Shown here: one piece after another, positions 16,356 through 38,900 of the stretch
Position numbering within the stretch: position 1 is the stretch's first letter
Layout of the letters: the number at the start of each line of letters is the position of its first letter
DNA from: a virus
Taxonomy: Duplodnaviria > Caudoviricetes
Direction: 5' to 3' (one strand)
Virus record (IMG/VR): IMGVR_UViG_3300020409_000014
Coordinates: 1-64,000 of that record
Length of the DNA: 64,000 nucleotides
Translations under genes and position numbers: made by a program
Notes under the pieces: model-generated
Seen by the model: only the letters and a program-made list of their open reading frames with translations
What the model was told of the DNA's origin: nothing
The model's database searches: none

Positions 16356-17932
16356 GTTGCATCGTATGTAACTGACGTGGTGTCATACTTCACTGCAGTA
16401 GATGAGAAGTCAGTATCGCCTTGTCCACCACCTATTCCTGATACAGATAACGTTGCAACGTTAGACATTAGTGGTGAGTTACTTGCATTATTAGCGGGTG
16501 CAGGTCCTCGTAATTCAACTTTATACTTGTAGTTGGACATGTATCCCAACGCAGTAAATGATAGTGAGTTGCTTGTTGCACCAGTAACTTGTGCGTATGC
16601 AAATCCATCATCAGTTGATCTATACCATTGATATGAAATAGGTCCTGGTATAGGAGAGACATTTGCTTGGACTGTAAAGGTAACAGTTGTATTGACAGAT
16701 GCCGTAGCACTTTGAGGTTGTGCAGTAATTTGCAGCGTAGGTGTAACAGGAGGTGCTCCACCGTCTCCACCTTCTTGTGCAGGAGGTGCTGCTGCTCCAT
16801 TGTTTGCAGGTTGATTTATACTCTCTCTAGTCATATTCCCAACCATATATGGGAATGCTGCTTCTCCTACAGAGTCAATAGATATAAAATATGCATAAGT
16901 CCCATTTGGAAATTCTGGGGTTACACAGTATCTACCATTGTGAAAATCTAAATCACCTAGACCATCAATATATTCCCAGTCCTGCACTAAAGATCCTGCA
17001 GGAGGGTTTTGTGCAGTAGTGCCATAATCAGGTCTTCCTGCTATTTCAATATTTCTTGTCCTATAACTCGAGGACATAAAACGAGTTGTTTGTGATGCAG
17101 TAAACGGCACGTCATATCCAAAAGGTCCGTATACTGGAAATCCGTCAAAGCAATATCCTAAGATTTTACTATGACCATCAGGGTGACGCATATTGTCACC
17201 ATTAAACTGACTACTACCATAGTAGTCATTATAGTTTGCCATAGCAGAATTCTGCTTCCAACAATCTATAAAATGAGTATCATGATAATGATATTGTCCT
17301 GTTGATTCTGGGTGTCCACCACAAGAATCTTCACCAAAATCTACAGGTGAATTAGGATAATGTGCATTCCATTGAAATCCTACAGGAGGGTTACCACCTG
17401 CACCTGCACTAGGATTATAGAATACAACTCCATTTGCAGCAATACCTATAGCACCAAGAGGAGTTTCTATACGTCCATTTCTTTGATCATAATATGTGTA
17501 TGTGCCTGTTGGTATTGTTTGTGAATCTGCAACAATAAGATCTAATCTTTGGTCTGTGGCGAGCCAGCATTCCCCTGCAATGGACGTAAATGTTGTCCCT
17601 CTAAATATAAATCGTTGTTTCCTACCGTCAGAAAAGATAAAGAAAAGATGATCGCCAGGAGCAATAGTTTGGGCAGCAAATAAAGCATTGTCATTAACTG
17701 ATATATTTACAGAGATAACAAATCCACTTTGGAAGTATGTGTTATCATCAAATGTCCTCTCAACACCAAACTCACCACCACGATATCTAAACGTATGTGC
17801 AAATGCCTGCTCTGTAACCGCATTAGGATTATTCAGATTAGGAAACGTGCCATAACTTACTGGATCAGGTAGACCATCACCAGTTACGGCAAGTTGTTTA
17901 GTTGCTGACGTGTATGTTGCTGTAGCGGTCAT
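16352..17932 (-). CDS. YHYH-domain protein with C-terminal Ig-like domain
   Basis: GAIGIAANGVVFYNP...DSCGGHP...QYHYH...HSKILGYCFDGFPVYGPFGY; C-terminal ITAQPQS...TFTV...SYQWY. Confidence 0.85.
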   Translation of the reverse strand: MTATATYTSATKQLAVTGDGLPDPVSYGTFPNLNNPNAVTEQAFAHTFRYRGGEFGVERTFDDNTYFQSGFVISVNISVNDNALFAAQTIAPGDHLFFIFSDGRKQRFIFRGTTFTSIAGECWLATDQRLDLIVADSQTIPTGTYTYYDQRNGRIETPLGAIGIAANGVVFYNPSAGAGGNPPVGFQWNAHYPNSPVDFGEDSCGGHPESTGQYHYHDTHFIDCWKQNSAMANYNDYYGSSQFNGDNMRHPDGHSKILGYCFDGFPVYGPFGYDVPFTASQTTRFMSSSYRTRNIEIAGRPDYGTTAQNPPAGSLVQDWEYIDGLGDLDFHNGRYCVTPEFPNGTYAYFISIDSVGEAAFPYMVGNMTRESINQPANNGAAAPPAQEGGDGGAPPVTPTLQITAQPQSATASVNTTVTFTVQANVSPIPGPISYQWYRSTDDGFAYAQVTGATSNSLSFTALGYMSNYKYKVELRGPAPANNASNSPLMSNVATLSVSGIGGGQGDTDFSSTAVKYDTTSVTYDAT

Positions 17933-20900
17933 GCGTCGTCGAAGATTTGATCAGGAGTGAAGTTAGAGATCACCGTGGATCCGATCTGGACAGATAGGAT
18001 AGCGGAGAAGGAGTAAACAGGTGTTGCTCCCGCTGCAGTTATCGCTACTCTGTATTCATCACCATCATCTTGTTGTGTGGTGGAGTTAGTAGGATATGCT
18101 GCTTGGTTTCCACCAATAATGTTAGACCAGACAGTTGTGCCGTAGTCTTTCTTCTGCCACTGATAGTTGAGTGTAGTAGTATTTAGTTGACCATCGGATG
18201 CCCTTACAAAGTCAGCAACCACGGTGAATGTTGCAGTTTGACCTTGGTTAACAGTCACGTTAACTGGGTTGATATTGATTCTAATTAAACCAGGATCAAC
18301 AACGATTGGATTACCCTGTTGATCAATACCCTCACCTGCATAGATGTCGAATCCATTATTTACAGGTGATCCTGTAGGTGTAACAAAATCATCCTCAACA
18401 GTTGTTTCAGCAGCAACTATAGGTAGTGAATATCCACCACCAGTTGCTTTTACGTCGATCCTTTGGATACCCATCATAGGCACCAAACGACCATCGAAAC
18501 CAGTAGAGGAGATAATCTCAACGTTAGGTTTAGATGTATAACCATCGCCAGGATTGGTTACAGTAGCAGAAATAATTTGTCCACTAGTAATATTTGCAAG
18601 TGCCTCTGCGTTTCTACCCTTAACTGATCCTGTATATTCAAATGTAATCAAGGAGTTAGAAGATTCAATTAGAGCAACTTCTCTTGGGAATTCTTCACCC
18701 TCGATGTCTAATTGGTCACCTGCCTCAATCGGTGGGACAACAGTTGCAGATATAACGTCAGCATCAGATCCAATGTAAGAGAATCCAACGAAGGTTGCTC
18801 CTGCTCTTGGGACTTCAGCAAAGATTATTCTAGATCCAACAATCTCATATGACACACCTGGCTCCTGTATGATACCGTTGAGTGATACGAGTATGTTGTT
18901 TTCTGGTAAGATCGTTGCAGATGAGACACCTTCTGTCAATGTCAATGAGTAGAAGATTCCATCTAACTTTAAGTTAAAGGAAGATCTTAGTGAATCAAAT
19001 TCAAATCCAATATCATCAAGTTGTCTTAGTTTACCAACATAGTATCCAATAAACTCAGATCCAATCTCAGGTGGCTCTGTAAACTGTATCTTGTCAGAGA
19101 ATGCAGTGTATGCATTAATAGCACCTGGTGGTTGTAGAATACCATTAACGAAGATGAGCATGTGTCCTGCAGGATCTGGGAAGTATGCTTGTCCATTCTC
19201 AACAGATAGTGAGAAGTTTTGCTGCACACCGTCAAATCCTCTGAAGTAACGATCAACACGTCCGACCAATGTCCTTGCATCAGATACAGCAGCTGACCAT
19301 CCATCGTCACCCTTAATAGTCATGTTGTCATAAAACTCACCGACTGCCTGCTCAACCCATATTCTTGCAGTAATACCTTGCTGCTCAATCTTAGAAATCT
19401 TAGCGTAAGAAGTATATGTGTTTTGAGTTATGTTAGTTACATTGGAGTAGATAACAGGGAAGTTTGTGCCGATGTCAAACTTACCAATGAATATACCTGC
19501 GTTTGTTAACTCACTCACAGATGCACCTGTGCCTACAGGTTGGACATTACCAATCCACATCTTATGTGGTATTACAGGACTCACATTGTTATTAGGAGCT
19601 TGATACTTAGTTACAACCGCTGTTAAACCAGGATTCTTAATAACAGTACCTATGAGCATATTAACTTCATCACCAACTTCAAATGTAGCAGCAAGACCTG
19701 CCTCAATAAATGTAGATCCAAGATCTAATTCTATAACCTCTGTGCCGTGAATAATATCATTTACTTCTGCAACTCCACCTGGTTGGTATATACCCTTAAC
19801 ATCTAGGATATAGTCAGTAAGACTACCATAGATGATGTCACCAGTCTCCCATCCAGATTGAATGGTCTCAACATCCATAACAACACGACCACCATCGTTA
19901 CCAATAATCGCACCTGACTTATTATCGTAGAATACGATATCTGCCTCAGTGTTATCTGCCTTCTTGAAGATCTTATCTCCAACAGCATATGCACCAAGAT
20001 CAACGTTAAGGAGTAGACGATCTGTTATAGCAGTAATGTCTGCAGTTGTTGAGCTGTCTAGTCCAACAAGAGTATCTCCAACTGCCCAGTTAGGTCCTGT
20101 CTTATCTACAACTCTTAGGATAATTTCTGTGTTACCAGTGTTATAGTTTTGCTGTAATATCTTACCTACAGCAGTTGCATCACCAGACTTGAATACATTT
20201 TCACCATTAGTGAATTTAGAAACGCCAGGATCTGATGGGTTGCCAAGTTTAACATATAAGAATGTTTCTCTGACAGATGCTTGGTTAAAGGACTGTGACC
20301 CAATCTCAGCAAATACATCAGATTGTGTGCCGTAAAGGACATCAGCATCAAGGAATCCACCTGAGTATGGAGTCTCTACATCAGGATTACCATATGTTGT
20401 AGTTGCTCTATTAATACCAGATCTTACAAGGACTTGGAAGATATGAGATGATGCTGCAGTATCGTCGAATTCTAATGCTCTAAATCTACCATCATGAGTT
20501 GGGACAGCACCTATTTCAAAGAATGTTGCCTCAGCATTTAAGATATAATATAAAGATTGACCTGTTGTGCCACCTAGTGTGCCACCACCTGCAGGAATGT
20601 ATTGTACAACATCACCACGTCTGAAGAAGTTAGCACGGTAAATTCTGACTCTAAACTCTGCTCTATCATACCCTGCACGAACTGTGGGAGTAAGAGATAC
20701 AAGAGCAGGATCGGTATTCCAGTCAAATCCTTCGTTGTATACAACGTGTCTGTTGTGGACGTCAGTATTAGCAATCCATGTAGTCTTCGCCTCAGTAGAG
20801 AATTTAGATTGCTCAAGTGCAAATTCAAATACGTTAATACTAGAATCCATATTGAATTCTGTTGCTTCCTGATCCCATTCTGTTCTAAGAGCAGGAATGT

Positions 20901-23900
20901 AAAGTCCAGGATCTGCAACGTAAGGAATCCAACCTGCACCGTCAGGAGCATATATGATTGACTTACAATATTCTCTAACACGAGTCATGTGATAGATTAG
21001 ATGTGTCCTAACAATTCCTGTATAGACAATCATATTTCCATCACCATCAAACCAGTTACTGATAGAATCAAATGCCTCAGCATTACCACCTGTAACAAGG
21101 TCATAAATTACAGCATGAATTATTTGATCTGCAAAGTCTGCATCACCTGCGTAACTAGGATAGAATGCAACAGTTTGATCATATGCTCTCTTTTTAATAG
21201 CAGGTTTGTTGAAGAGTATCATCTTCGCTGCCATCTTATTACTTGTTGATCCACCTGATAAGGTCTCATACATGACCTTATACTTCTTCTCAATCTCTAG
21301 TTTGACATCATAACACTTACCTGCATTATAGAGATTAGATGTAGGTGATGTAGGAGCAGTCTCTGTGACAGTTGTGCCATAGTAAGTAAGACCATTTCCT
21401 GCTACAGCAGCGTCAATACCACCTTCAAGAATTGCCATCAAAGTATTGATTGCAGCAGCTTGAGTAGGACAGGTTTGATTCCACTGTGTTGCTTGATTGT
21501 CAAATGTGACAGATACATCTCTAAGTGGGACATCTCCACTATATTTTGTTGGCCAGATGTTTGGTAGTGTTGGGGTAAATGATCCAGATAGACCATTAGG
21601 ATATGTTGTTGTATCAGATCCTGTAGGATCATTTATAGTATCAGTAACTATACTAATAAGTCTATTAACTTCGGTATCTACATCAGAGTCACTTATAGCA
21701 CTCATATTTCCTTCACCAGTTACCCACTTATCTTCAATGTCAGTAATTGGGACAAACTCAGCACCGTTTGTTGCATGTCTAGAAGGTGTAGTGCCTTGGT
21801 ATATTTGCTTGGCAATATCTCTAGCAGTATTTGTAATCCAAGTTACTTCATTTACAACGCCTGCGATATGTTGAATAACTCCATTCTCAACATAGTATCC
21901 TGCACCAAGTGCAACCATGTTGTCACCACCATATTCTAGGTTGAATGTATGCCACGCAAGCACATCAGCAACGTCATGGACACAATCAATAGATCCTGCT
22001 GCAGTAATACAATTATGTGTAGCACTTACAAATGCATGAGTATATTGCTGACCTGCAGGTGATGCACCAACGTTAACTGTTACAGTGCCACTCTGTTTTA
22101 TCAATGCACCAGATGTTGCACTTACAAATGTATGAGGATATTGCTGTCCAACTTGTGAAGGATAAACATTAACTGCAATATTGTCATCATCAATCTTAGT
22201 TACTATCAACCACTTATTATTAGCAGGGTCAGTAGATCTTGGATAATCGTGGTTTGTGCTGTTTCCATCTTGTGTGCAAGTAAATCTAATACCATCTGTT
22301 GCAATCTTAATTCTATTTCCAGTTACAAGTCCATGACCTGCAGATGTAATTGTCAAAATACCAGTTGTTTCTTGGTATGATGCATTTGTAATATTTGCAG
22401 TCCCAGTGCCAACAGCAGTTACAGCAACTGTCTTATTATAGTAAGGATCAGTTGTCCTAGGATATGAATGATTAGATGCATTATTATCCTGACTGCATGT
22501 AAATGTCAATGAGTTAGGAGCAATCATTAAACGATTACCAACATTGAATACATGGTCAGGAATTGTCATTACCATGTCACCAGTTGCAGAGTTGTAAGTA
22601 ATGTTTGTAGGTGTTAGTTTTTGTCCACCAAAATCATCACCCCACTTAATAGATCCTGCAAGTGCACTCTGGAATTGGTGAGTATACTGCTGACCTTGTG
22701 GTGATGCTCCAACGTTTATAGTAATGGTTGTTTGTGATATATCTTCTACAAGAATATTCTTTTCATATACAGGATCAGTTGTCCTTGGATATGGATGATC
22801 TGTTGCATAGTTATCTTGTGAGCAACGTAATGTAATACCTAGAGGAGTAACTCTAACTGTGTCACCTCTTTGGATATCGTGCTTACCAATGGTAACGACC
22901 ATCTTACCATTTGTAGAATTATAATTTACATCTGTAGGAGTGAATTCTTTTGTCCACAATGCACTAGATCCACCATTGATACTTAATGAAGGATACTGAT
23001 CTAATCCACGACGGACTGCCTCTTCTGCAATAAATCTAATGTTTCTTTCAATAGCACGAGCAGCATATATTCTATTGTTAGATGCACCATTACGCTCATA
23101 ACTTGAAAGTTGGAAAGTTACTTCGTTATGACCAGGTAAACTATCACGACCAAATCCATTTCTAATTGTTAGGATTGCCATATCTCTAGCAATCTTAAAT
23201 ACAGCTTTAGATGCTTCTGTTTCACCTTCGATGTGTTTAATACCACCGTCAGATCTTACATAAAGTTTACCAATTCTATAGGTTTCAGAGTTACCACCAT
23301 GACGTAAATCATGAGCAACACCTGCCAAGATGTCAACAACATCATCTTCACAATCTACAGGGTTGCCAGTTGGCACAATAAATGATCCATACTTAGAAAG
23401 GTCATTCATTGTAGAAACTGCTTCCTTAGCAATTATTCTTGCATTGTCATCAATTAAATCTGCAGCATCAAGGAATTTATTAGATCCAGTCCTTGTTTGA
23501 TCAAACTGTTTAGGATCGTAAGTAATTGTCTCATCTCTAAATGCTAATCTTGAAGTATATATTGGTGAGTAATATTCATCTTGATAAGTTGCACTAACAC
23601 CAAGAGAAGCAGAAGTTTCGCCTGGTGACATGAGTAAATTATTAATTGCTTTCTTTGCGAGCATCTCTGTATAGTGAATCGCATCAATCATTGGATTCAA
23701 TTCATCAGTAATGTAAAGAATCTCATTATCACTATTCAAATAACTATCAATAACCTTCTGTGTTTCAGCATTACCACCCATAATGATGTCACCAATGACA
23801 GCAGGTAATACATGATCCTTAAGGTCACGCAAACACTTGGTGTTGTTTGGAATAGTTAAGAATTGGACTGGGACACTATTAATTGTCTTAGTATAAAGTG

Positions 23901-26900
23901 CATTGATATGACCAACTGCTTCTTCTGCAATATAATCGCGGTTTTTCCAAATAAGTGCACCTGCATCTCTGAATCTATGTCCAGTAGGAGCAAGGACGTC
24001 AGCGATGTAATCACCTAAAGTATCTAATTGTGTTTCTACTTGAGTTGTGCCAGACAGTGCATGTGGGACACGAAGTTTAGTTGTGTATGTGCCAGTGAGG
24101 GTAGTGTCAGATGTGTTAATTACATACTTACAAAGTTTTACAACTTCACGCCATGCATATAGAGTTTGTAGTAACTCTTGACCAATATACTCAATCTCAC
24201 CACCTCTTGTGCGGTAGAAACGAGCAGTAACGATAACGTTATAGTTACCACCTTCTCTTAGATCTTTTACAATAGCAGGTAAGATATAATCTCTAGTATC
24301 TCTAATACAAACATTTGTGCCACTCATTGTGCCACCTGCACCATAAGTATCGCCAGGTATTGTAAAGTCAGGGAAGAATGCCTGCATGATTCCAACTGCT
24401 TCCTCAGCAATCCAATCACGGTTAATATCAATTATATCTGCAGCGTCTCTATAAATTTCTCTACCAAGATCTACCTCCTCAATAGTAATACGCTTATTGA
24501 GATAATCAATAGATTTAAGTGTAGATGATGAATTTGTTAAACCAGTAAGTGTAGCGTATACCTCAGTTGTAGAAACTACAAATGGTGCTTCTCCATTAAT
24601 ACCAAGGACAATACTACTATTAGTAAAGTCAGGATCTGAAGGAGGAGTAATTGTAGCACCTTCATAATCACCAACACCTTTCTTAACGATAAGATTATCA
24701 AGGTTACCTATAAACTGTTGACCGTTAGAAACATCTTTACCAAGAGCAAATCTTGCAAACTCGTATGTGTTTGTATCGCTGTAAGTTGTTTGCTGCACAC
24801 CATCAATATAGATTGAAGTTACAGCAGACTTTCTAACAACAGCAATATGATGCCATCTAAGTGCAATAAGAGTATTTGTAGATGTAATAAGAGTGCTGCT
24901 ACCATTAGCGAGGATAAGTTGACCACTTCCATTCAATACTAGACTTAGACCTGTTGAGGTTGTTTGTGGACGTCTCATATCAAAGATAATCTGATTACCT
25001 GATATTGCGTCAGCACGAAGTCTCATCTCAATAGTAAAGTCACCTGTGCCAAACTTAAAGTCATTTCTTTCTGTCTGGACAATCTGTCCAGTGTTAGGAA
25101 TTCTAACTGATTTTGTGTTATTAGAAAGAGCTGATAATATTGTAATATCATCTATGGTGCAATTAGAATTAACTAGAGTAGAGTTAGTTACATATTCTCC
25201 AATACTGAATGTGCCAGTAGCGTTACCACCATATATCCACTTAAGACCATTGTTAGATCCTTTAATAGGAGCAGATGCATTAGTTGTAACACCTTTAAGG
25301 TTTTCGCCAGGTAGGAATAAACCTCTTGATGGATCTTTAAATGCATATTTTGTAACACGAAGAGTTTCACCTGCACTATAACCACCATCAGTGATTGTCC
25401 TTTCAGTAGGAGCAGTCCTTGTGGCGTGTGCCATATTGTTGTTGGTATATGCAGTTGTGTATACACTCATAAGTGTATTAAATGCAGATACAACAGTTGC
25501 ACAACCATTAGTATCTGAATTAACAGGTGTTAGATCTGTGTCAAACCACTGTCTCTTACCATGTATTCCTGTGGCAGCAAATCTAGGATAGTAGTAATCA
25601 CCAAATGTCTTAGATACAAAATGTAAGTAATGTAATCTTACTGTGTCTCCATTAGATAATGTTGGAGTATAACTTTCTGCAAGTTGAATAGAAAGTGTGC
25701 CCCCTGCAACGTCATAAGTTGCTAAAGCAATGTCTGCAGTGTTATCTAATGTTACTGCGTTACTTGTAGCACTTACAAATGTATGTGTATAGTTACCACC
25801 TGTGATAACAGCACCAAATGCTGCACTTTGGAAGACGTGCTCATACTGACCTTGTGCAGTTGCAACACCTACGTTTACAGTAATAGTGGTAGATGTTGTA
25901 TCTGTAATTGTTATTGCAGTATCATAGTATGGGTCAGTTGTCCTTGGATAAGCATGATCAGTTAGATAGTTATCTTGAGAGCATCTAAAGACTAATGATT
26001 CTTGTGCAATTTTGATAGCAGTGCCTGTCTCTAATTTGTGCTCACCAATAGTCATTACCATCACACCGCTAGATGGACTGTAGGTGATAGCAGTAGGAGT
26101 AAATGTTATCTCAGGAGATGCACCAACGTTAACTGTAATAGATGTGTTTGCAACAACAGATTTAACTTCTAGAGGTTTGTTATAATATGGATCTTTTCCT
26201 GCTCTAGGATATGTCTTGTTAGAAGATCCACCATCCATTGTGCAATTAAATGTCAAACTATTAGCAGCGATAGAAACAAATCTACCTGCAGTAATATTAT
26301 GAGATCCAATAGTTAATACTAAGTCACCAGTTACAGGATTATATGTTGCACCAGTTGGTGTAAATTGTGGTGGTGCCACAACCATCTTACCGTTACCAAC
26401 ATAAGTTAATGAGTCACCTGCATTCAGTGTGACAGTTGGGACTGTCACATCAAATGTCCTAGTGGCGTTGTTTACGTTAGCAACTGTAAATGTATCTGTG
26501 CCGTTTTGTATGACACTGCCTGCAATAGTCTGTGCTTCAGCATATATTCCATTAACTTGTGATGCAGTTGTAGGAGAGTCATCATAAGCAATAGCATAAG
26601 TTGCAGCATCATATACTCTACTGTTTCCACCATACTTAATATCATAAGCAATCGCTTCAATTACATCTTTGATATCGTCTGTGCAATCAGCATCAGTTTG
26701 GTGAGGAGTAAATCCTGGATTAGCAGTCTTATAAATGTGAAGTGCTTCTGCAGCAATAAATTCTTTGTTATTAAGAAGAAGGTTTGCACCATCAATATTG
26801 AGACTACCTTGAGGCACTGGATCAGCAAATACACCAGTAATCTTAGGACCTCCTGTGCCCTCAGATGTATATGAAGTTGTGCCTGTAAGGTTATGTGTAT

Positions 26901-29900
26901 TTTCTGCAGTAACAGAGTGAATAACAATGTCAGTTAAGAATGTAATATTCTGTTGAATATCAGCACAGTTACTTAAACTCTGAGCATTACCAGATGAGTA
27001 ATTAGGATCATAAGTATGTGCAGGAGCAGATCCACCGTAAGTTATAGGATCGTTTAAGTTATATCCTTCGTTACCAATATCTTTTACATAGAGCAAGTTG
27101 TTGATAGCATAAAACATTGTGTCTCTTGCTTTCAATATTGCAGTCTGTGATTCAGCAACTTCACCATAGAATCCGTTAAGAATAAAGTTACCAGTAGTAT
27201 CAAAATATTGCTCTGCAAAGTTTTGAGAATTAAACTCACCACCTGAGCTTAAATCATCAGCAATAGCATCTATGAATAATCCTAAGTCACGACGACATTT
27301 TTCTTGACCTATAGAAGTTGTAGGCTCAACTTCAGTAGGAATATCATTTAGATTACCTGCAGCTATTGCTTCGTTTTGCCATGTCCAGATAGTAGTAATT
27401 GCAGACTGCACGTCGCTACAATTATCAGTAGTAGCGTTATCTGTATTGCTGCCTGGAGTCGCATACGGAGATCCTGGTGATGGGTCTGCTGTGATTGAGA
27501 GGTCTGCATAATAAGTTGCTTCGTCGGTTGAATTAGTTGCACTGAATACACCAGTTAACTGGTTTGTAATAGCAGCAAGACATAAGTCTTTTGCTTTCTC
27601 TACAATGAATAATAACTCAGCACTTGCTCTACTATAGTTAAGTGTAGTTGAATCTGAGAAGTATTCATTAATCCACTTCAAGGAGTATTGGTTACCACCT
27701 GAGTGAATATCTAATGCAAGAGATTCTATCCATAGTCTAACATCATCTAGGTAACCTTGCTTGTCTCCTGCAGAAGTGCCAGTGAAAGCTGTTTTTTGTA
27801 GATCATATGCTCTTAAAGATATTGCATCAATATTCTTAAGAATCATACGATATGCATCTCTAAATCTTGATGTTGTGTTAGTCTGCACATCGCCAGGATA
27901 ATAGAAATCAGGATGCTCTACTGCAACCCAACGCTCTGCTCTGTCAATAATTTCTTGTCTATTTCTACCAATACTTCTAGCACCGTCATTTGCTCTGTTA
28001 CCTGCATTACCTACAAGGTTTGCATAGAATATTGCTTTGTTTCTTAGAGCATCACCTTTAGCAAATGTGCCACTAGAAAGATTATCGTATTCAATCTCAG
28101 TGCTTCTAACTTCTTCAAAGTCTAAGAAATCTTCATTGATTCTAGCCTCTGCATCGTACAATTGTACTGGTGTAATACTTGACTGAGAAATATCATCAAG
28201 TATGACATTAGGATTCTGAATAGCAACAAGTCTTTCGTAGATAAGACCGAAGAATGTAGATCCTCTGTTAATGATTAGAGTGTCAACAGGTTGACCAGTA
28301 TTAGGATCTAGATATGGACTAATAAATGTAATCTGAGCAACGATCTTAGAGTTACTTGAGTAGATGTATTCGTTTAATTTAATATCAAAGATACCAGTTT
28401 CAAATCTTGAAGTACCTGAAGTCTTACTTAATAGTAATGTGTCTGTTGCATTACCTTGTGCATCAAGGTTTGTTTCTTCAATGATTGCTATATCACCGTC
28501 AAAGTTAGTGATTGTCTCTTGGAATTTAAAGAGACTTTCAGTGTTGATAAGATCTACACTTCCTACAACAGCATTGAATAATGTTGTCCTCTTAATTATT
28601 TCACTGACTGTGAAAGGTCCGTCAGTAATGTTAATAACATCAATATGGAATGTCCCTGAGTCAATAACAGTTGCATATGCATCAGAAGACTCACCATTAA
28701 CTTGCTGACCCATCTCAGGGAATATACCCTGTGGGTTTACTAATGTAATTCTGTAAACTGGTATAGTTGTAAATCTAACAGCTCTATATCTAACCTGTGA
28801 TGCTGCTTTTGGTGGCTCAGCAAATACAATTTGATTACCAACAATTTGATATGATGTGCCAGGTGCTTGGATAACACCATTCAATGTAATCATCAACTGA
28901 TTACCTTTAACAATTACACCTTCACCTTCTACAGTGATTGGGAATGATTTTAATATTCCATCAAAATCATCAGATATATCATCAATCTTCTTAACGATAG
29001 AAGTTAAGATTTCCTCAGATGATGTTAATCTTCTACTTCTGAATAATACCTCAGTATTGTTGTAGTCAGTATATACTGGCTCAGCAGCACCAAATGATGT
29101 GATCTGGTTTACGTTAGTATACTCATTAATATTAACTTCTTTAATAAATTCTGTGCCAACCTTTCTACCAGATACGTCTTTACCACCAGTTAGTGATAAC
29201 TGACCAAACATCTTAAATCCTGTAGGATGGTTGTTGTCTAATACTTGCTTCTTCCATCTTGTAATAGGAATCTCAGATGTAATAACATAAGAGAATGACT
29301 GATAGAAGAAACTATCTTGAATCTTCTGGACAATCTCAGATGGTTTACCAACATCATCGATGAATCTACCAGGTGTTTGTGTAATTGAGTCAATATTCAA
29401 TACACCACGAGCAATGCTTAAGTTATCGATAATACCAGATGCTTTAGAAACCTCACCTGATACTTTTTCACCTTGGACAAAGTTACCTGTATAATCAACA
29501 ACCTTAAGAATCTTAGGACCTATCTGCCAACCAGTATTGGTAGAAACAAAACCTGTTGCAGATGCTTGCTCAGGACTATTACCTTGGAAAATTTTCTCAC
29601 CTTCTAGGAATCTAGATGTTGCAACAACAGCAGTAGCAGTACCTCCAAACACCTCAGTTAAGAGAGTTTGTCGTCCCTCACCCTGTGTTAGGAAGGTAAT
29701 AAAGTCACCAGACTGTGCGGCTTGTAACGTTAATCCGAAGCGTAATTGATCAGATTCTAACTGATCAGCAATAGCATAGTATATCTGTCCTTCAACTAAT
29801 TGAGTCAAACCTGCACTACTTGGTTTTGGTAGTATACCAGTTGTAGATCCTATACTATCAGCACGCAACTGAATAGCAGCACCTGTTGTAATACCATGTG

Positions 29901-32900
29901 GGAAGTTAAACTGTAGATAGTTAAGATCTAAGTTAACAACATAGTTAAATTCTGATTTTAGAGTTACAGTTGGCTCAGATGAATATCCTTGACCTGGATT
30001 CTTAATAAGAATCTCATTCAAACGATTGTTTTTGATAACCGCTTCTGCCTCAGCACCTGATCCACCACCACCTTCGATTACAACTGCAGGAGCAGATGTG
30101 TAACCAGAACCTGGATCAGTTATGGTAATCTCAGTTAGTATTGAAGTATTAAAGAGTTGTAGGTTAACAGGGAATGTAATCTCAGGACGTAGAGTGTAGT
30201 CATGTGAATATCCAAATCCAAACTCATTGTTTTTAAGTCTCTTAATCTTACCGATATTTTTACCAGTTAGGAATACAGATGCACCACTACCTTCATCAGG
30301 AATTACAACTGCTAATGCAGCACCAGATCCTGCAAGTTGAGGTCCTAAGATACCTGTGATACTATCAACGTCTATACTTGCAGTTGTATAACCTTTACCT
30401 GGATCTGCAACAGATACATCTGAAATTGTGCCTGATCCAATCTCTTCATCAAGAGTAACAGTGATAGTTGCTAAACCACCTTCACCATCTCCATCGATAG
30501 GCACGTTATAGTAAACGCCAGGTTGATATTCTGTACCTCCTGAGGTTATAGTAATACGCTCAATCTGTCTGAATGATGCAATATCAGATATAATAGGTAA
30601 CTTCTGATAGAATCCACCTGGTGATACTAGTTTAATAGTATTGATAGGTCCTATTGCTTTTACAGATGTTGTTGAATAGAATGAGAATGGATTGCCGTTT
30701 TCGTCATCTTGGACTTCAGCAGATGAGGTTTCTGGCTCAAGTAGTAATGGGAATTTGAATTCAGTATTGTTGACAATTTGTGATATAGTAAATGTGCCAT
30801 CATAAGGTGTCTTAATAATATCAATAAATGAATTTGCACCAACAGGAGACATTGATCCAATTCTAGATGGATCAAAGTAGTAAGAAATATTAGTTACATT
30901 ACCAATAGCAGAGAATTTAACATATGGTCTTAGACCTTCTGCTTGGACACCTGGTGTCCCAACTCTAGTAATATTATTAAAGGAGTATTCCAACTTATAC
31001 TGGTTATCCTGTGCAAATGACAGATAGTAACCGAAGTTAGATGCATCACCAACATCAAAGACATATTGATGCTCTCTAATAAATGTTAGAGATGGATGTT
31101 TAGCAAATATATTAACATTGCTTATACTGTTTTGATTGAATACAGGATCACCTGCAGCAGTATTTCTTAGTCCAAATACAAATTCTCTACTACCAAATAC
31201 TTCACGAATAAAGAATGACCCGTTGTATTCTGTAGTATTAAATCCTTCAGTAAATATAATTTCATTAGCTCTGTAATTATGAGGTGTCACAGATGTTGCA
31301 TAAACAAGATCTGATCTTGCATCACTAACTTTCTTAATATCTTTCTTAAGAGTTGTAGTTAACTCAACTTCTTTAACAGATGCAAATCCAGTTACCTTAA
31401 CAACCTTATATGCATCAGTGCCTTCATCATCAACAACAATATTTCCAGAGTTGATAGCAATAACATCGCCAGGTATGTAAGATGATGCAGGTTGTACCTT
31501 TCTAATCTTAACTGAGTATTGTCCATCACTGTATTGTTGGAATCTAGCATAGTCAGATAGTGGTTGCTCTGTAGATTTCCATTCCCATGTTACGCCACCA
31601 TCAGACGCTGTGCCAGTTGTATGTACTGGTGCAATGGTGCCTGATGTACCTGCAACTGTTACTTCATATATGTTACGCTGCCAATAAACTTGATATCCTA
31701 CAGGGAAATTAACTCCCTGATCCCAACGATCCATATCCATTCCTCTGTATTGAGGTTTGGGGTATGGCTCAGTTTGAATGTCAATGTTAAACTCACCTGC
31801 ATTTCTAATAAACACCCATGTAACAGAACCGTCACTTACAGCACCAGTAGTGTGTGTTGGGGGAGTTACACCAGATGTGCCACCTGATTGTGCCTCGTAT
31901 ATCTTCTTAGCATAGTATACTCTGTCAGCAGTAGCATATGCAGTACCTGTGACCCAAATATTTTCTTCCTCAACACCAATAAATGTTTGCTCAGGTATTA
32001 TGTTTATATCTGTTGCTTCTGTAGATCTTAATAGATCAGTAGTATTGAATGTGCCGAAGATCTTACCAATCTTATACTTATTACCTAGACCAGGATTTGT
32101 TGTAGTGCCTACAGGAGTTTCTACAATCGTGCCGTATGCTTGGACTACACCAAGAGCATTGTATTGCTGAAGAATTGCACCTTTAGTAAACTTAACATCT
32201 TGGTTAAGAGTATATTCAAGGATGTTATCAATCTTACTGTAAGTTGCATCTTTAATATAGAATTTAGGCACAACGTTTGCAGTAACAAACATCTTCTGAC
32301 CATTCTTAACAGGTATAGTAGAAGACTTAGATGCAAACTGCTCTCTGTTGTTTGTCCATGTGTACGTTTGTACTGGTGTGTATACACTGGGCGAATCTGA
32401 GAAGTCAAGTAGTTGTAGACCACCTGCTCCAACATCCCACTGATCAATAGAAGGTAAACCTGCATCTGACCATGTGCCAGTTGTCCACTCACTGATAGTA
32501 AGATTAGAATAGTTAGTAGGTGTAGTTAATGTATATGTGCCTCTTCCAGAAGTATGTGCTCTGTCAATCTTAATAGCAACCACGTCACTGATTTCATGTG
32601 ATAGTGGGTATTTGGTTGTAGGAGGAGTAAAGGTTGACTCAAACTCATCAAGTTTAGATATAATCCAATCGTCAATATGACCAATAAATGCCTTAGTTGC
32701 AACTGATGGCTCAGTGCCACCTAATCCAACAGACGCCATATTAACGTCAATTAGAGTTTGATATGTAACTGCAAGTGTGCCATCATAGTAAACATTGATT
32801 TCCCATACACCTGATCCAGTGTTTTCTTTAACAAGTGCAATATGATGCCATGCTGCAGCAGCAAAGTTTCCCCAGTAAGTAGTCTCTGTAGAAGAAGCAA

Positions 32901-35900
32901 CTACACTACCATTTACCTCAAGAATAATTTTACCGAAGTTTGGATCAGATGAGATACCCATAAGGTATGCAGAAACACCAGAGGTGCCATTTACTTCAAC
33001 AGTGTCAAAGAAGTGTGGAGTATTACCTGCTGCATATGCAGTGGTATTCATACTAAACCATGCTGCAGTAGTCCAGTTTTGACCTTCCCATGCTAAACCA
33101 GATGCAGTAGCACGGTTTGCTGCTTGGAATTTGAGTGATCCAGTGCCATACTTATAATATGATGTATCTACCTCAGCATCAGCAGGTGTTTGAATTGTAA
33201 GAGTAGATATAGTCTGTTTAGTTGTATCATAGTCTAAATCAGCACTATTATCAAATCTATAGACTGCAAGTTGATTAGGAATCAATCTTTCAGCAACAGT
33301 GATGATATCACCAGAATTATCAACTGTAGATGTCTTACCAACTTGTCCAACAGAATCAGTTGTTTCTATTAATGATTCTTCTTTTATTGTGCCATCATAC
33401 TTAAGTGAAGATACAATATTAGTTTTTCTGTCTTCGTCATAATCTATAGCAGCAGTTATGACAACATCTCCAAATACATCGATATGTAGACCAGTATTCT
33501 TAATAGAGACGTAATTTCCTTGAGGAGTTAATGATTTACGGAATAACCAAGGTTTTGGTAATGTAGCACCTTGGTTATTCGTATAAGTTGCATTTGTGTC
33601 TCCAAGAGGAATTTTACCAAGTTGAATTCTTTCAAATTTACCATTTGCATTATTAAAGACATCATATAAGAAAAATACGTCATTATACTCGTCAATAGTA
33701 AATCTTGGGTTTCTTGCATAACCACCAAGAGCAGGGACTTGTTTTACGAAGTCAACATTGATATTTGACCCATCATATGAGAATGTGCCGTATATCATGT
33801 TATCAGTTGTCTGGTTGACACCTACAAACATAAATGTGCTATTTGAAACCCATCTAATCTGTGTAAGATCCTCATCACCATTTGGAGAAGATATTTTACG
33901 CTTCTCTTTTAGATCTCCATCATTATTAGATTGAATGATCCAAATATCATTTGCATCTATTGCCTGAGTATCAGTATAACCAACAAGGTAGATATTGTTA
34001 TTTTCGTCAAGAGCAATGTCAGTAATATAGTCTCTACGTTGTCCACCAGATATACCTGCGATAGACTTCTGCCACTTTAAAGTACCTGTAGGATTGTTTT
34101 GTGCATCCCTTTCTGACTCATATTTACCAAACCAGACATCTGGATTATAATTGGCGTTATCGGGGTCATATGTTTGGCCACCAACATATATGAGGTCGTT
34201 TTCTTGTGAGTCATCAACGTATAGACAAGTAAATTCAAGTTTCTTAGTGCCTGCATTATTTGGAAGCAATGTCCTAACCCACTGCACCTCACCAAGGTCA
34301 TCAAACTTGGCAATGAAACCAACTTGATCATTATCGATATCTTCTACTAAAGATCCACAAATATAGTAGTCTCTATTAACTGTTGAGTAACTATCGAATA
34401 TGGTAACGTTACCACTGTCATTCAAATACTCTGATAACCAATAACGTGTTTTAGTATTTGACTGTGGATGTGATACTCTGATTTGTGGGACATTAGTTGT
34501 GCTATAACCATTACCAGAGTTTACAATATTAAATGAGCTTGCAACACCTGCAGCGTCTAAGTTGATAGTAAATTCAGCATCAACACCACCTGAGTCATCA
34601 ACCAACTCATATGTTGGAGGTATTAACTCACTATATCCAATACCTTCTATATCTACTGTAACACTCTCAATACCATCTACAACTTTTACAGTAAACTCTT
34701 TATTTGTATTTGACGTAATAGGAGTGCTATCTACAATAACTTCATCACCTTGAGAAAGATCATGGTTTTCAGAAGTTGTAATAACACCATATGGTCTATC
34801 ACCAATTATTTCCTTGACATATGCACTTATAGGGACACCTTTAATACTATCAATAATTGCAGAAGCACCAAATCCACCAGTGCCTTCATTATCGAAGAAT
34901 ACGGTATCATTTACCTGATAAGATCTACCAGGATTCTCAATAACGAAACCATCAATTTGTGCAGTTTCAAACTGAGTAACAGTCTCTACATCGATGTCAA
35001 CTTTAGACTCAAGTGAGACTTGTGGGAAGTAATCATATATCTGTAGTGTAGGCTCCTCTTGTAACTGTAATATCTCTTGTTGCTCATTAGCATCAATAAT
35101 ACCATCTTGGTTACTATCTTGAATCTCAAAGATGATAGGATAACCTTCTATCTCAGTTGTTAAAACATCTGCCTCTTGGTTTGGTAAACGCTCAACATCT
35201 ATGTCCACATTCTCATATGGGACTCTATATCTTACAACATCAGCAGGAATATTTTCTTGGACTGCACCTTGACTTAAATTCCACTCATCTGGAAGTGAGT
35301 TAAATGCAGGACCCATAATGTATGGGAATAGTGGTAAACCATCTGAAGATGCATCAATAGTAACGAAGTATGCATATGTGCCATCAGGATACTCAGGTGT
35401 TTTACAGAAACGACCGTTATATTGATCTAGGTCACCTTGTTGGAAAACATACTCATAGTCAGGTACAAATGACCCTGCAGGATAAGTTGCTAGTAGAGGA
35501 CCGTCAACTCTAGCAGGATTTGGGTTTGCATCTGATAATACTATCTCAGGTTTAAGTTGATATGATGTGCGAAGTCTTCTTACACCACTGTTTTGATCGG
35601 TTGGGTTTGCATATCCATAAGGACCGTAGATTGGGTTTCCATCATATGCCCATCCTAAGATTGGAGAGTGTTGGAAGTTAGTTTCAATTTCTTGGAATTT
35701 TCCTGTTTCTTGATCTAAGAATACATTGTCTCCAACAACATAACGTAATTCTTTTGGATCTGAGAGGTGAGCATATTCTCCACCATACTGGTTGTTAAGT
35801 CCAGTAAATACATATCCTCTTGCTATATCATACTTGTTAGAAAGCTCATATTCAAAGTTTTTATTCCACTCAAATACCTGTGCAGTGAATGTTGCCAATT

Positions 35901-38900
35901 CACCAACAGCGTCTAGTCTTACAGTAGTTGTACCTTGGATATAGTTAATACCTCTGTTGGATATGGAGATACCAATTACTTTACCCTTGTCTTCCCCAGT
36001 TGTTGCAATGGTTGCTTTTGCAACAGCACCAAATCCATCACCATTGATTACAACTCTTGGTGCTGTTGTATAACGACGACCAGAGTTAATAATAGCGATA
36101 GATACGATTCTACCATTCAATACGATTGGTTGTGCTAATGCACCTTCACCAGATGTAACAGATACAGTGGGGAGAGATGTGTATCCTGATCCACCACCTG
36201 TTAATGTAACAGCAGAGATAGGACCTCTGATATTAGCAGTGGCTGCAGCACCACTACCGCCACCCCCAGTAATAGTAATAGATGGTTGTGATGTGAAGCC
36301 ACTGCCAGGATTGCTTACTAAGATTCTTGTTATAACACCATTAGTAACAACCGCAGTTGCAGATGCACCTGATCCACCACCACCAACGATAGAGATCAAT
36401 GGAGAAGATGTATAATCCTGTCCTCCTGCAGTTACCTCAAATGAGTCAACACTACCATTAACTGTAACAGTAGCAGTTGCACCACTACCTCCACCACCTT
36501 CAATAAGGACTTCTGGGGGAGATCCTGCATCATAGTTAAGACCTGAGTTAGCAACAACAATACCAGTCAAAGGACCGAAAAGAATTGACTCTTCTGACTT
36601 ATAGCACCATATACTTACACCATTAACCCAAGCACCTATTGCACTGTTAGCAGCAATCTGTTGTCTCTCAGAAACGGTATTTACAGTCCTAGGGACTCTA
36701 ATAAGTTTTCTTTGGTTGCCAGGTATCAATGCAGACCCAATAAAAGGTCCTATCTTGTAGTTTGGAAGACCAGACGCTGCAACGTAGACATAATCGGCAT
36801 TAAAGAAGGAATTCTGAATATTAGTCGTAAATTCAGTAACAACGTTGTTAATTGCAGTCTCAGTAGACTTACCTCTGTTAAGATCGACTGAAAGTAAGAT
36901 ATTACCAACAGGGACGATATCAGTTGCTGTTGCAACTCTATATGAAAAATTAAAGTCGTCAATACGAGAAGAAACTTGGAATGTGCCGTTAAAGACAACT
37001 GGGTTAGCACCATATACTGTAACGGTGTCTTCTACCAATAATCCATGAGGTTCTTCGGTTGTTACGGTTGCAACTTGTGATGCACCGCCAGGATCGATTG
37101 TAGAAACCCTAACAAGTTTTTTAACGTTGTAAAACCAAGATTCTAGTCTTTCTTCACCAACAGAGTCTGATCCGAGCGATGCAACTTTTAATTTATCGCC
37201 AGGTAAGTAATATGACCCTGTATCGTCTAATACTGTGCTTCCTGCTTCGGCAATACCCAAAACACGCATTTTAACTTCGGTAGAAGTGCCTCTATTAGCG
37301 TAAATGAAGATATTAGAAGTAATAGTGGTGCCAGGATCCCAATCTTCAACAATACCGTTATTTGATCGAGTACATTCAATAAATTGGTTAAGTGACTTCT
37401 CTTTATACAAGACTTCTTCATTATCGCCAATAAAGAAGGTGCCGTTTCTCTCTGGCCATCCAATAGTCGAGTCAACGGTTACAATTTGCCCTGTAGTGGA
37501 TAATGGCTCAACTAGATTAGTAATATAAGGTATTTTAAATGTGCCAGTAAGTGTTTCTTCAGATATTACCAATTCATAAATTGTATCTTCACCTTTGATG
37601 ATAGAAATTGCATTTTCAACTAATGCTGATGCATTCTTGACATTTTGATCAACCTCATCTGCATATTGAATAACTTCTGCGTCAATTAGGTTAGCAGCGT
37701 CACCAGATACAATCTGAGTCCTTAAAATAGTGTCTACAGTCCATGTAGCAGCAGATGGAGAGATAATCTGCTCTTTAGGATATGAAACCTCAATCTCTTC
37801 ACCAAAAAGAATCTTGAAAAGGTATTTTGCACCTAATGCAGTACCTTTAGCAAGATAGAAGTCCCTGATATTCTTAATTACGTTAACAGGGTTAACTTTA
37901 CTTGGATCTAGATTTATAGTCGGTAAATATTGCTTTCTAAACTTCTCAAATAACTGATAGATGAAAATAGAGTCAAGGTTGTGGACTACTGACCCTATGG
38001 GGTGTGTGCTAGTAGCAATTTGACTTTCTTTTGCAAAAATTTGGTTTCCATACTCATCAAAGTCAACAACGTTAGAAACACCACGGACAATACCATTAAA
38101 TGCACTAGGCACATAGTTTCTACCACTCTCTTCAATTACAAATCCAGTAACTTCGTCATATCCGACATTTACAGATGCTTTTGCTGCTTGAGGCTCAGCA
38201 ATGTAAATTGTAGGAGGATTTGTTTCACTATATCCAGTACCAAAGTTGGTAATGTTGATGTCTGTTAACTCACCGTTGAATATAGTCGCTGCAGCAGTTG
38301 CACCTGTGCCTCCAATAGGATCACCGTATGCATCTTTGCGATCGTCAACAATATAGACAGATGGAGCGTCAGTATAACCTCTACCACCAGTCAATAACTC
38401 AATATCTGTAACAGCACCACTAGATACAGTCACATCTAAGACTTGAGCACCAACAGGATCGATTACACGGCATCTAGGAGGACTTGTATACCCTCTTCCT
38501 CTATTAATGATAGTAACTAGACTTAAACTACCTTCTGCAGTTAGAGAGCACTCTGCGATAGCGTTGATACCACCATCAGGAGCAGGATCAATGTATATTG
38601 TAGGAGGGTTAGCATAATTAAGACCTGGTGAGGTAACTGTAATGCTATCTACGTTAAGTCTACCTTCAGAGTCAATAGTTGCATCGCTAATAGTTGCACC
38701 GCCAGGATTATTGAAGGTAATAACTGGCACAAAGTCATAACCAGATCCAGAATCAGTAATTCTAACTGAATCTACCATTCCAGTGGTATCATTGACTGTC
38801 AAAGCAACCCTTGCAAGTCTACCATTAGGATTACTAGGTGCAGTAACTAAAGGAATAGGAGGATTGTAAGATGTATAACCTTGACCACCAGAAATTAACT

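What the first reader, a model, noticed from the sequence alone, without database searches (positions are those of the whole stretch)
21420..27425. Second cysteine in register with beta-Cys155, the T-type lyase site
Seen: several repeats end in a helix that starts with Cys: DNCSDVQSAITTIWTWQNEAI (27418), SNCADIQQNITFLTDIVIHSV (26964), NGCATVVSAFNTLMSVYTTAY (25501), QTCPTQAAAINTLMAILEGGI (21469). Established (from memory): the phycocyanin beta helix H reads GDCSAL.SE...YFD.A..AV, and CpcT/CpeT lyases load this Cys. Inference: the repeats derive from beta-type subunits and could be the missing substrate of phage CpeT. The alternative is a structural disulfide with the first Cys.
Basis: inference. 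Interest (0 to 1): 0.75.

Follow-up and report, generated by a model that had tools for sequence, protein, structure and literature searches.

The report
Second bilin-type cysteine in phage baseplate
A giant baseplate protein of a marine cyanobacterial virus is built partly from copies of the light-harvesting phycobiliprotein fold, and some copies carry a second conserved cysteine, with its partner aspartate, where algal beta-subunits bind a second pigment, so the virus particle itself may carry pigments.

Summary
These Cys are kept in 74/78, 68/87, 59/67 and 64/65 aligned homologues.

The ORF is the gp7-position baseplate protein of a P-TIM40-like cyanomyovirus. It holds about 8 phycobiliprotein-fold units:
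- The unit profile hits almost only phycobiliproteins in PDB sequences.
- hhalign against beta subunits gives 96% probability, E 3e-9.
- The AF2 model gives Z 16, rmsd 2.1 A over 138 residues against beta chains.

The first Cys sits on Cys84, with Arg86 and Asp87. The second Cys falls on beta-Cys155.

New here: units with the second Cys have Asp at the beta-Asp39 position in 99% of cases, against 30% otherwise. Beta-Asp39 is the residue that holds the beta155 bilin. An intra-unit disulfide is unlikely, because the two sites lie about 39 A apart in phycocyanin.

The CpeT link stays circumstantial. CpeT and the units co-occur in 27 of 28 genomes, but only 3 contrasts are phylogenetically independent, and there are counter-examples (P-SSM4, S-SKS1). 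C6164 is not securely placed.

No pigment has been shown. First-stage readers of this scan noted the same repeats on this stretch.

The parts
17929..39960 (-). Giant structural ORF (7343 aa) at the T4 gp7 position: baseplate wedge protein of a P-TIM40-like cyanomyovirus
   Evidence: 88% identical over the tested part to PTIM40_99, which lies between the gp6-like and gp10-like genes. Homologues are named 'baseplate wedge initiator' or 'virion structural protein'.
27310..27939 (-). Unit U0 (res 4008-4217). First site is Tyr4070 here (Cys in 63/77 homologues). Arg4032 and Asp4035 mark the beta-Asp39-like position. The last helix starts with Cys4181.
27418..27420 (-). Cys4181 codon: second-site Cys of U0. 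Its helix (res 4177-4201) also superposes on helix B of U1.
26836..27447 (-). Unit U1 (res 4172-4375). Asp4183, first site Cys4222-Arg4224-Asp4225, second site Cys4332.
26965..26967 (-). Cys4332 codon: second-site Cys of U1. It maps to beta-Cys153(155) by the structural ranges.
26434..26844 (-). Unit U2, N-terminal part (res 4373-4509). Asp4390, first site Cys4426-x-Asp-Asp.
25441..25518 (-). Last helix of U2 (res 4815-4840), starting with Cys4820 (codon 25501-25503). It follows a beta-rich insert of about 300 aa in the G-H loop.
23980..24582 (-). Unit U3 (res 5127-5327). Canonical unit with first site Cys5218-Arg-Asp. Its last helix has no Cys.
   Evidence: AF2 pLDDT 83.7. Foldseek's top 50 are all phycobiliproteins. 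VIA Z 16.0, rmsd 2.1 A over 138 residues.
23506..24030 (-). Unit U4 (res 5311-5485). First site Cys5376-Arg-Asp. No last helix aligned.
23026..23574 (-). Unit U5 (res 5463-5645). First site Cys5537-x-Asp-Asp.
21544..22107 (-). Unit U6, main part (res 5952-6139). First site Cys5993-x-His-Asp, with its own Cys-less last helix near residue 6089. Its N-terminal helix lies at res 5609-5681, before an insert of about 300 aa.
21313..21483 (-). Two consecutive Cys-led helices, Cys6164 (codon 21469-21471) and Cys6216 (codon 21313-21315). Both are conserved (64/65, 59/63). Their assignment to a unit is uncertain.
20752..21351 (-). Unit U7 (res 6204-6403), degenerate, with no first-site Cys.

Best explanation
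Shown:
- The region is a string of about eight phycobiliprotein-fold (globin-like, PF00502-type) domains inside the giant gp7-position baseplate protein of a T4-like cyanophage.
- Nearly every unit keeps the Cys84-x-Arg86-Asp87 bilin-attachment motif.
- A subset of units has a second conserved Cys at the N-terminus of the last helix (helix H). In this window these are U0, U1 and U2 (Cys4181, Cys4332, Cys4820). This is the position homologous to beta-Cys155.
- In those units the residue homologous to beta-Asp39 is almost always Asp. Beta-Asp39 is the residue that H-bonds the pyrrole nitrogens of the beta155 bilin.

Inferred:
- These units carry a second thioether-linked bilin in a beta155-like pocket, formed between helix B and the G-H loop/helix H.
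- The bilin would be added in the infected cell before virion assembly, by a T-type lyase (phage CpeT where present, or the host's CpcT/CpeT) or autocatalytically.
- The baseplate would then leave the cell pigmented. A plausible use is light sensing for adsorption.

Cys6164 does not fit this scheme securely.
For: Fold and homology:
- PF00502 scores 27.7 bits against a cut-off of 22.2 on residues 4101-6300. It is precomputed on many homologues.
- A profile of 49 units searched against PDB sequences returns 57 phycobiliproteins among the top 60. The best E is 1e-4, with the unit Cys on Cys84 in 'KC.RD.G'.
- AF2 model of U3: pLDDT 83.7. VIA Z 16.0, rmsd 2.1 A over 138 residues, model 24-185 on chain 31-177, mostly beta chains.

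Register of the second Cys:
- hhalign of 145 two-Cys units against CpcB/CpeB gives probability 95.9% and E 2.7e-9. The first Cys falls on Cys84, the second on Cys155 and the unit Asp on Asp39.
- The register is unchanged with the second Cys masked.
- In the U1 model, the range ends put Cys4332 on beta-153 and Asp4183 on beta-39.

Conservation:
- In unit instances the first Cys is present in 94%, Asp87 in 97% and Arg86 in 71%. The commonest class of unit has a single Cys.
- The second Cys is kept in 88-98% of aligned homologues at three sites and 78% at the fourth.

Coupling:
- Asp at the Asp39 position is present in 99% of units with the second Cys and 30% without. Per cluster the counts are 86:2 against 49:123.
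- Arg three residues upstream is present in 82% against 19%.
- Arg4032 and Asp4035 are kept in 75/75 and 74/75 homologues.

Established knowledge:
- Beta-Asp39 H-bonds the beta155 bilin, and the beta84 and beta155 bilins lie 38.7 A apart (PMC6614406).

Context:
- CpeT and the units co-occur in 27/28 complete genomes.
- The roles of phage cpeT, pebS and pcyA are unresolved (PMC3037559).
Against: - No chromophore has been shown, and no report of pigmented cyanophage virions was found.
- Helix H is not significantly similar to beta helix H on its own. The local hhalign alignment stops at helix G, and confidence in the H region is low.
- The G-H loop is not alignable with the beta146-152 loop.
- Coordinates of the models were not available, so no Cys-Cys or Cys-Asp distance was measured.
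- The U1 model is of low confidence (pLDDT 63.9).
- The Asp-Cys coupling is partly confounded by subfamily structure, and it is weak at U2 (Asp4390 kept in 52%).
- P-SSM4 and P-SSM3 carry CpeT, yet their units lack both Cys. S-SCSM1 has CpeT but no second Cys. S-SKS1 has a two-Cys unit without phage CpeT.
- P-SSM2 and S-SSM7 have pebS and ho1 but no units (PMC3037559).
- The helix bearing Cys4181 may be helix B of U1 rather than helix H of U0.
Confidence: 0.4

Rival explanations
1. Structural disulfide. After lysis into oxic seawater, the second Cys bonds to another Cys and stiffens the helical array. The partner could be the first-site Cys of the following unit, or the next Cys-led helix. No pigment is involved.
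For: - Every second Cys has a conserved Cys 41-94 residues downstream: 4181/4222, 4332/4426, 6164/6216.
- Cys6164 and Cys6216 head two consecutive helices, and both are conserved.
- Virions are extracellular.
- Cys-less units exist in P-SSM4, so Cys is not needed for the fold.
Against: - Within a unit the two sites correspond to positions whose bilins lie 38.7 A apart in phycocyanin. The unit keeps that geometry (rmsd 2.1 A).
- The first Cys is 94% conserved, and most units have only that one Cys. The first Cys is therefore not kept as a disulfide partner.
- Cys4181 is kept in all 13 homologues whose U0 first site is not Cys.
- Cys4820 has no conserved Cys downstream before the laminin-G domain.
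- A disulfide does not explain the 99% coupling to the Asp39-equivalent.
Confidence: 0.25
2. Inherited relic or plain helix cap. The Cys and Asp are leftovers of a beta-type phycobiliprotein ancestor, or they serve local packing, with no ligand. The units are only rigid building blocks of a long baseplate fibre.
For: - Tandem arrays of 15-20 units in metagenomic proteins mostly lack the second Cys.
- Units without any Cys exist.
- No pigment has been reported.
Against: - A free Cys kept in 78-98% of homologues that are only 30-57% identical is hard to explain by drift. Neighbouring helix-G Cys drift freely.
- The Cys column is 42% Cys against a 0.4% background.
- The full Cys84-Arg86-Asp87 motif is kept at 94/71/97%.
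Confidence: 0.15
3. Another ligand or chemistry at the Cys-Asp pair, such as a metal, redox sensing, or a covalent link to a different cofactor or to another virion protein.
For: - Cys, Asp and Arg co-vary.
- The nearby inserted beta-modules carry conserved Cys and His.
- First-stage readers noted metal-like sites elsewhere in this genome (unchecked).
Against: - The pair sits exactly where beta subunits hold a bilin.
- One Cys and one Asp do not make a usual metal site.
Confidence: 0.1

Closest known systems
Phycobiliprotein beta subunits (CpcB, CpeB, cryptophyte beta; Pfam PF00502)
   Same: - Same globin-like fold from helix A/B to helix H (Z 16, rmsd 2.1 A).
- Cys84-x-Arg86-Asp87 motif.
- In a subset of units, a Cys at the N-terminus of helix H in the register of Cys155, together with Asp at position 39.
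   Different: - The units are fused head to tail inside a 7343-aa virion protein instead of forming free 17-20 kDa subunits in alpha-beta trimers.
- No clear X-Y hairpin.
- Helix F is replaced by a short beta bridge.
- The G-H loop is much longer (first-to-second Cys spacing +110 against +71). In some units it holds whole inserted domains.
- Sequence identity is only 13-19%.
- No chromophore has been shown.
ApcE (core-membrane linker) phycobiliprotein domain and smURFP-type single-domain bilin binders
   Same: A phycobiliprotein fold embedded in a larger multidomain protein, or used alone. ApcE attaches its bilin without a lyase (from memory). Both appear among the structural matches.
   Different: These are cellular light-harvesting or engineered proteins with one bilin site. 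Here there are many tandem units in a phage baseplate protein, some with two candidate sites.
CpcT/CpeT T-type lyase and its beta-Cys155 (153/158/165) site
   Same: The candidate second site matches the T-type site in position and in the Asp39 partner. A CpeT-like gene is present in P-TIM40 and in 20 of the 21 unit-bearing genomes tested.
   Different: No transfer has been tested. CpeT also occurs in phages whose units lack Cys (P-SSM4, P-SSM3), and a two-Cys unit occurs without phage CpeT (S-SKS1).
T4 gp7 baseplate wedge protein
   Same: Gene position between gp6-like and gp8/gp10-like genes. Weak match to the Baseplate_wedge profile near residue 700. Homologues are annotated 'baseplate wedge initiator'.
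   Different: The protein is about seven times longer than T4 gp7. Most of its length is added domains: YHYH, beta-propeller repeat, laminin-G, phycobiliprotein-like units and Cys/His beta-modules.

Membership tests
Phycobiliprotein fold family (PF00502) | Significant profile similarity to the family | tested here: met
   - PF00502 scores 27.7 bits against a cut-off of 22.2.
- The unit profile against PDB gives best E 1e-4, with 57 of the top 60 being phycobiliproteins.
- hhalign against beta subunits gives E 2.7e-9, probability 95.9%.
Phycobiliprotein fold family (PF00502) | Globin-like helical fold, helices A/B, E, F', G, H in the same topology | tested here: met
   - AF2 model of U3: pLDDT 83.7, pTM 0.82.
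- Foldseek's top 50 are all phycobiliproteins.
- VIA Z 16.0, rmsd 2.1 A over 138 residues, model 24-185 on chain 31-177.
Phycobiliprotein fold family (PF00502) | Cys84 attachment site with Arg86 and Asp87 | tested here: met
   Cys is present in 94%, Arg in 71% and Asp in 97% of 1540 aligned unit instances. The Cys aligns on Cys84. In the window it is present in U1-U6 and replaced by Tyr in U0.
Phycobiliprotein fold family (PF00502) | N-terminal X-Y helical hairpin and alpha-beta monomer / trimer assembly | tested here: inconclusive
   Most structural alignments start at chain residue 21-34. Only a short helix precedes helix A in the U3 model. Assembly cannot be tested here.
Phycobiliprotein fold family (PF00502) | Covalently bound bilin chromophore | not testable with these tools
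   Needs spectroscopy or mass spectrometry of virions or of the recombinant protein.
Beta-type subunit with second site (beta-Cys155) | Cys at the N-terminus of helix H in the register of beta-Cys155 | tested here: met
   - hhalign puts Cys on Cys, and the register is unchanged with the Cys masked.
- Spacing is the same: C-x-x-hydrophobic-x3-I-x2-hydrophobic.
- U1 model range ends map Cys4332 to beta-153, 158 or 165 depending on chain type.
- Helix H similarity alone is not significant.
- Cys6164 is not placed.
Beta-type subunit with second site (beta-Cys155) | Asp39 in helix B facing the second bilin | tested here: met
   The unit Asp aligns on beta-Asp39. It is Asp in 99% of units with the second Cys against 30% without. 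The role of Asp39 is taken from PMC6614406.
Beta-type subunit with second site (beta-Cys155) | Beta-specific G-H loop (146-152, Thr149) covering the bilin | tested here: inconclusive
   The units have a long G-H loop (23-45 residues or more) with a conserved 'D.TIT.D' stretch, but it does not align with the beta loop.
Beta-type subunit with second site (beta-Cys155) | Closer to beta than to alpha subunits overall | tested here: inconclusive
   - The best chain per PDB entry is nearly always beta.
- Two-Cys units score 50 against beta and 38.8 against alpha.
- All units together score 35.7 against alpha and 30.4 against beta.
- The best HMM hits in PDB are alpha chains.
Substrate of T-type lyase CpeT | Lyase gene in the same genome | tested here: inconclusive
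   There is no PF06206 match in the 74.5-kb fragment, which is about 40% complete. The nearest complete relative, P-TIM40, has a CpeT-like ORF scoring 32.6 bits against a cut-off of 21.
Substrate of T-type lyase CpeT | Lyase-dependent bilin transfer to this Cys | not testable with these tools
   Needs in vitro or E. coli co-expression assays.
T4 gp7-type baseplate wedge protein | Gene order gp6 - gp7 - gp8..gp10, and similarity to wedge profiles | tested here: inconclusive
   Synteny is met in P-TIM40. PF23786 scores only 15.4 bits against a cut-off of 27. It is precomputed on many homologues.

The most novel reading that the evidence does not exclude
T4-like cyanophages build bilin-binding phycobiliprotein domains into their baseplate and tail-fibre proteins. 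Some units hold two pigments, one at the Cys84-type site and one at the Cys155/Asp39-type site. These virion proteins, not host antennae, would be a main client of the phage-encoded CpeT, and perhaps of pebS, pcyA and ho1. The pigmented baseplate would act as the photoreceptor behind light-dependent adsorption.
Probability: 0.25. Interest if true: 0.95.

Novelty: new variant of a known kind. Interest (0 to 1): 0.78.

Why it matters
Two questions about marine cyanophages have been open for years.
- Why do the phages carry a lone T-type bilin lyase (cpeT) and bilin synthesis genes, even when the host lacks phycobilisomes? PMC3037559 calls this role 'unresolved' and 'a mystery'.
- What makes adsorption of some cyanomyoviruses depend on light, independently of host photosynthesis? 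PMC6628666, citing Jia et al. 2010, points to unknown light-sensitive receptors or tail fibres.

A virion protein made of phycobiliprotein domains, with intact first-site motifs and a coupled Cys155/Asp39 second site in some units, gives both questions a concrete target. That target can be expressed, mutated and measured.

If the sites are not pigmented, the result is still useful. It would show the phycobiliprotein fold recruited as a structural repeat in phage fibres. It would also show that the Pfam 'Phycobilisome' hits on these giant proteins are true homology.

Tried and rejected
- phmmer of residues 5160-5700 against PDB sequences found nothing. A profile was needed.
With a single protein it returned only relatives at 90-99% identity.
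I used range ends of the structural alignments and a published inter-bilin distance instead.
- The U1 model is of low confidence, and its Foldseek E-values are not significant.
- In one search I used residue 4097 as the first site of U0. That was wrong: the site is Tyr4070. That row is void and was redone.
- tblastn with the divergent P-TIM40 CpeT finds only 170 phage records and is not a usable census.
- The raw CpeT/unit association (Fisher about 7e-6) was rejected as proof. A gp6 tree put five of the seven 'neither' phages in one clade, leaving 3 independent contrasts (sign test p 0.5).
- The Gasper et al. 2017 paper on phage CpeT is not held. What that lyase transfers to is therefore not cited.
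- Literature searches for phycobiliprotein-like domains in phage structural proteins found nothing. The library is incomplete, so this is not proof of novelty.

Full report
**What is there.** The finding lies in a single ORF, window 17929-39960 on the minus strand, 7343 aa.
- Over the tested part it is 88% identical to PTIM40_99 of cyanophage P-TIM40 (host Prochlorococcus NATL2A). That gene sits between the gp6-like and gp10-like baseplate genes, at the T4 gp7 position.
- Homologues are giant (4-8 kaa) proteins of T4-like cyanophages, annotated 'virion structural protein' or 'baseplate wedge initiator'.
- A tblastn of three units against 50,697 phage records hits 356 records, all of them cyanophages.

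**The observation.**
- The four motifs start at residues 4179, 4330, 4818 and 6162.
- Cys is rare in the protein: 29 residues, of which 21 lie in residues 4127-6332.
- I built a unit HMM from 464 non-redundant units. In 1751 unit instances from 270 proteins, the column at the start of the last helix is Cys in 327 of 779 aligned cases.
- Across homologues the four Cys are kept in 74/78, 68/87, 59/67 and 64/65. Cys in helix G drift.

**The units are phycobiliprotein domains.**
- Pfam PF00502 scores above its cut-off on the region.
- A profile of 49 units (window plus five metagenomic arrays, A2) was searched against all PDB sequences. It returns 57 phycobiliproteins among the top 60, with best E 1e-4. 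Profile positions 17-80 fall on residues 32-104, and the unit Cys falls on Cys84 within 'KC.RD.G'.
- The AF2 model of unit U3 (pLDDT 83.7) finds only phycobiliproteins among the first 50 Foldseek hits. VIA-align gives Z 16.0, rmsd 2.1 A over 138 residues, model 24-185 on chain 31-177. The best chain of almost every entry is a beta subunit.
- Across units the first Cys is present in 94%, Asp87 in 97% and Arg86 in 71%. The commonest class of unit has exactly one Cys, so this Cys is not kept as a disulfide partner.

**Register of the second Cys.**
- I fetched real CpcB/CpeB and CpcA genes from cyanobacterial genomes. I compared their profiles with 145 non-redundant units that have both Cys.
- Against beta subunits: probability 95.9%, E 2.7e-9, 160 aligned columns. 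The first Cys falls on Cys84, the second on Cys155, and the conserved unit Asp of 'R..DA..LI..N' on beta-Asp39.
- Against alpha subunits the score is lower (38.8 against 50).
- With the second Cys masked the register does not move. Confidence there is low, however, and the local alignment ends at helix G.
- The heptad spacing is the same in both: C-x-x-hydrophobic-x3-I-x2-hydrophobic.
- In the low-confidence U1 model, the range ends on PC-beta (model 7-180 on chain 34-172) put Cys4332 on residue 153, which is Cys155 in consensus numbering. They put Asp4183 on residue 39. On 177-aa and 184-aa phycoerythrin beta chains the same reasoning gives residues 158 and 165.
- From memory, 153/155, 158 and 165 are the numbers of the T-type lyase site in those chain types. 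I did not check that against a paper.

**New evidence for a working second site.**
- The column that best separates units with the second Cys from units whose last helix lacks it is the Asp39-equivalent. It is Asp in 99% against 30%.
- Counted per loose sequence cluster, the numbers are 86:2 against 49:123.
- An Arg three residues upstream follows the same pattern (82% against 19%).
- In phycocyanin, beta-Asp39 H-bonds the protonated pyrrole nitrogens of the beta155 bilin (PMC6614406).
- In the window, Arg4032 and Asp4035 of U0 are kept in 75/75 and 74/75 homologues.
- The coupling is weaker at U1 (Asp4183, 63/78) and weak at U2 (Asp4390, 52%).
- Subfamily structure inflates these statistics, but the asymmetry is what a two-residue site predicts: Cys almost never occurs without Asp, while Asp often occurs without Cys.

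**The disulfide alternative.**
- In phycocyanin the beta84 and beta155 bilins are 38.7 A apart (PMC6614406 Table 3). The unit keeps the fold closely, so a bond between the two Cys of one unit is unlikely.
- Cys4181 is kept in all 13 homologues where the U0 first site is not Cys. These include this window, where it is Tyr4070 (which corrects).
- Bonds between neighbouring units cannot be excluded without coordinates.
- Cys6164 and Cys6216 head two consecutive helices 52 residues apart. They lie outside any well-defined unit and may be such a pair.
- The helix carrying Cys4181 superposes on helix B of U1. It may serve both units.

**The CpeT link.**
- The record holding the window is a 74.5-kb fragment, about 40% complete, with no CpeT match. 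P-TIM40 has a CpeT-like gene.
- I scored 28 complete genomes for CpeT (PF06206) and for the unit profile:

| Pattern | Genomes | Which |
|---|---|---|
| Both CpeT and units | 20 | |
| Neither | 7 | P-SSM2, S-SSM7, S-SM2, S-CRM01, P-TIM68, S-TIM5, Bellamy |
| Units only | 1 | S-SKS1 |
| CpeT only | 0 | |

- The raw association is strong. On a gp6 tree, however, five of the 'neither' phages form one clade together with S-SKS1 and S-SCSM1. That leaves three independent contrasts, two of them concordant.
- Counter-examples exist:
  - P-SSM4 and P-SSM3 have CpeT, but their three units have neither Cys.
  - S-SCSM1 has CpeT and no second Cys.
  - S-SKS1 has a two-Cys unit and no phage CpeT, though its host has lyases of its own.
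- P-SSM2 and S-SSM7 carry pebS and ho1 without any unit (PMC3037559).
- CpeT as the loader is therefore a reasonable hypothesis, not a result.

**Verdict.**
- The homology and the beta-155 register are supported for Cys4181, 4332 and 4820, and are uncertain for Cys6164.
- The best-supported function is a second bilin site, at moderate confidence.
- A beta-type origin and CpeT loading remain open.
- I found no paper describing phycobiliprotein domains in phage structural proteins, although Pfam already marks many homologues.
- First-stage readers of this scan noted the same repeats on this stretch. Their notes were not used as evidence.

Noticed in passing
window 22165-26370 (res ~4560-4700 and ~5700-5910): Five beta-rich modules carry the motif 'TF.C.QD....H.YPR..DP.Y.K'. 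Their Cys (4573, 4660, 5713, 5822, 5895) are kept in 92-100% of homologues. The modules are inserted into loops of units U2 and U6. P-SSM4 has the same modules ('LTF.CTKDGN..TH.YPR.TDP').
   Followed up: partly
complete genomes of 28 cyanophages: CpeT and the phycobiliprotein-like units co-occur in 27 of 28 genomes: 20 have both and 7 have neither. The genomes without units cluster in one clade on a gp6 tree.
   Followed up: yes
L017, L018, L021, L019 (metagenomic contigs): Proteins of 3400-4800 aa consist largely of 15-20 head-to-tail phycobiliprotein-like units. phmmer matched up to 33 stretches in one protein. Nearly all units have the first Cys and mostly lack the second. Each gene is followed by a conserved gene of about 128 aa.
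   Followed up: partly
P-SSM4 NC_006884 56.5-79 kb (L208, L235, L236): The orthologous 7312-aa protein has only three recognisable units. All of them lack both the C.RD motif and the Cys-led helix, although the phage encodes CpeT.
   Followed up: yes
window 21313-21483: Two consecutive conserved Cys-led helices (Cys6164, Cys6216) lie 52 residues apart, outside a canonical unit. They may form a disulfide-linked helical hairpin or a degenerate unit.
   Followed up: partly
window 35350-35796, ~33970-34047, ~24690-25085: The same giant protein holds other domains: YHYH (res 1389-1537, E 9e-30), a beta-propeller SBBP repeat (res 1972-1997) and a laminin-G/ConA-like domain (res about 4960-5090, E 2e-15).
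   Followed up: no
S-SKS1 NC_020851 15.5-19.5 kb (L226): A 928-aa ORF holds a single unit with both Cys, in a phage without CpeT. The genome also has a T4-like gp6.
   Followed up: partly
L014:1246-1728 (P-TIM40 cpeT): The P-TIM40 CpeT-like protein is only 25-29% identical to the CpeT of other cyanophages. Its start is a GTG in the longest ORF.
   Followed up: no
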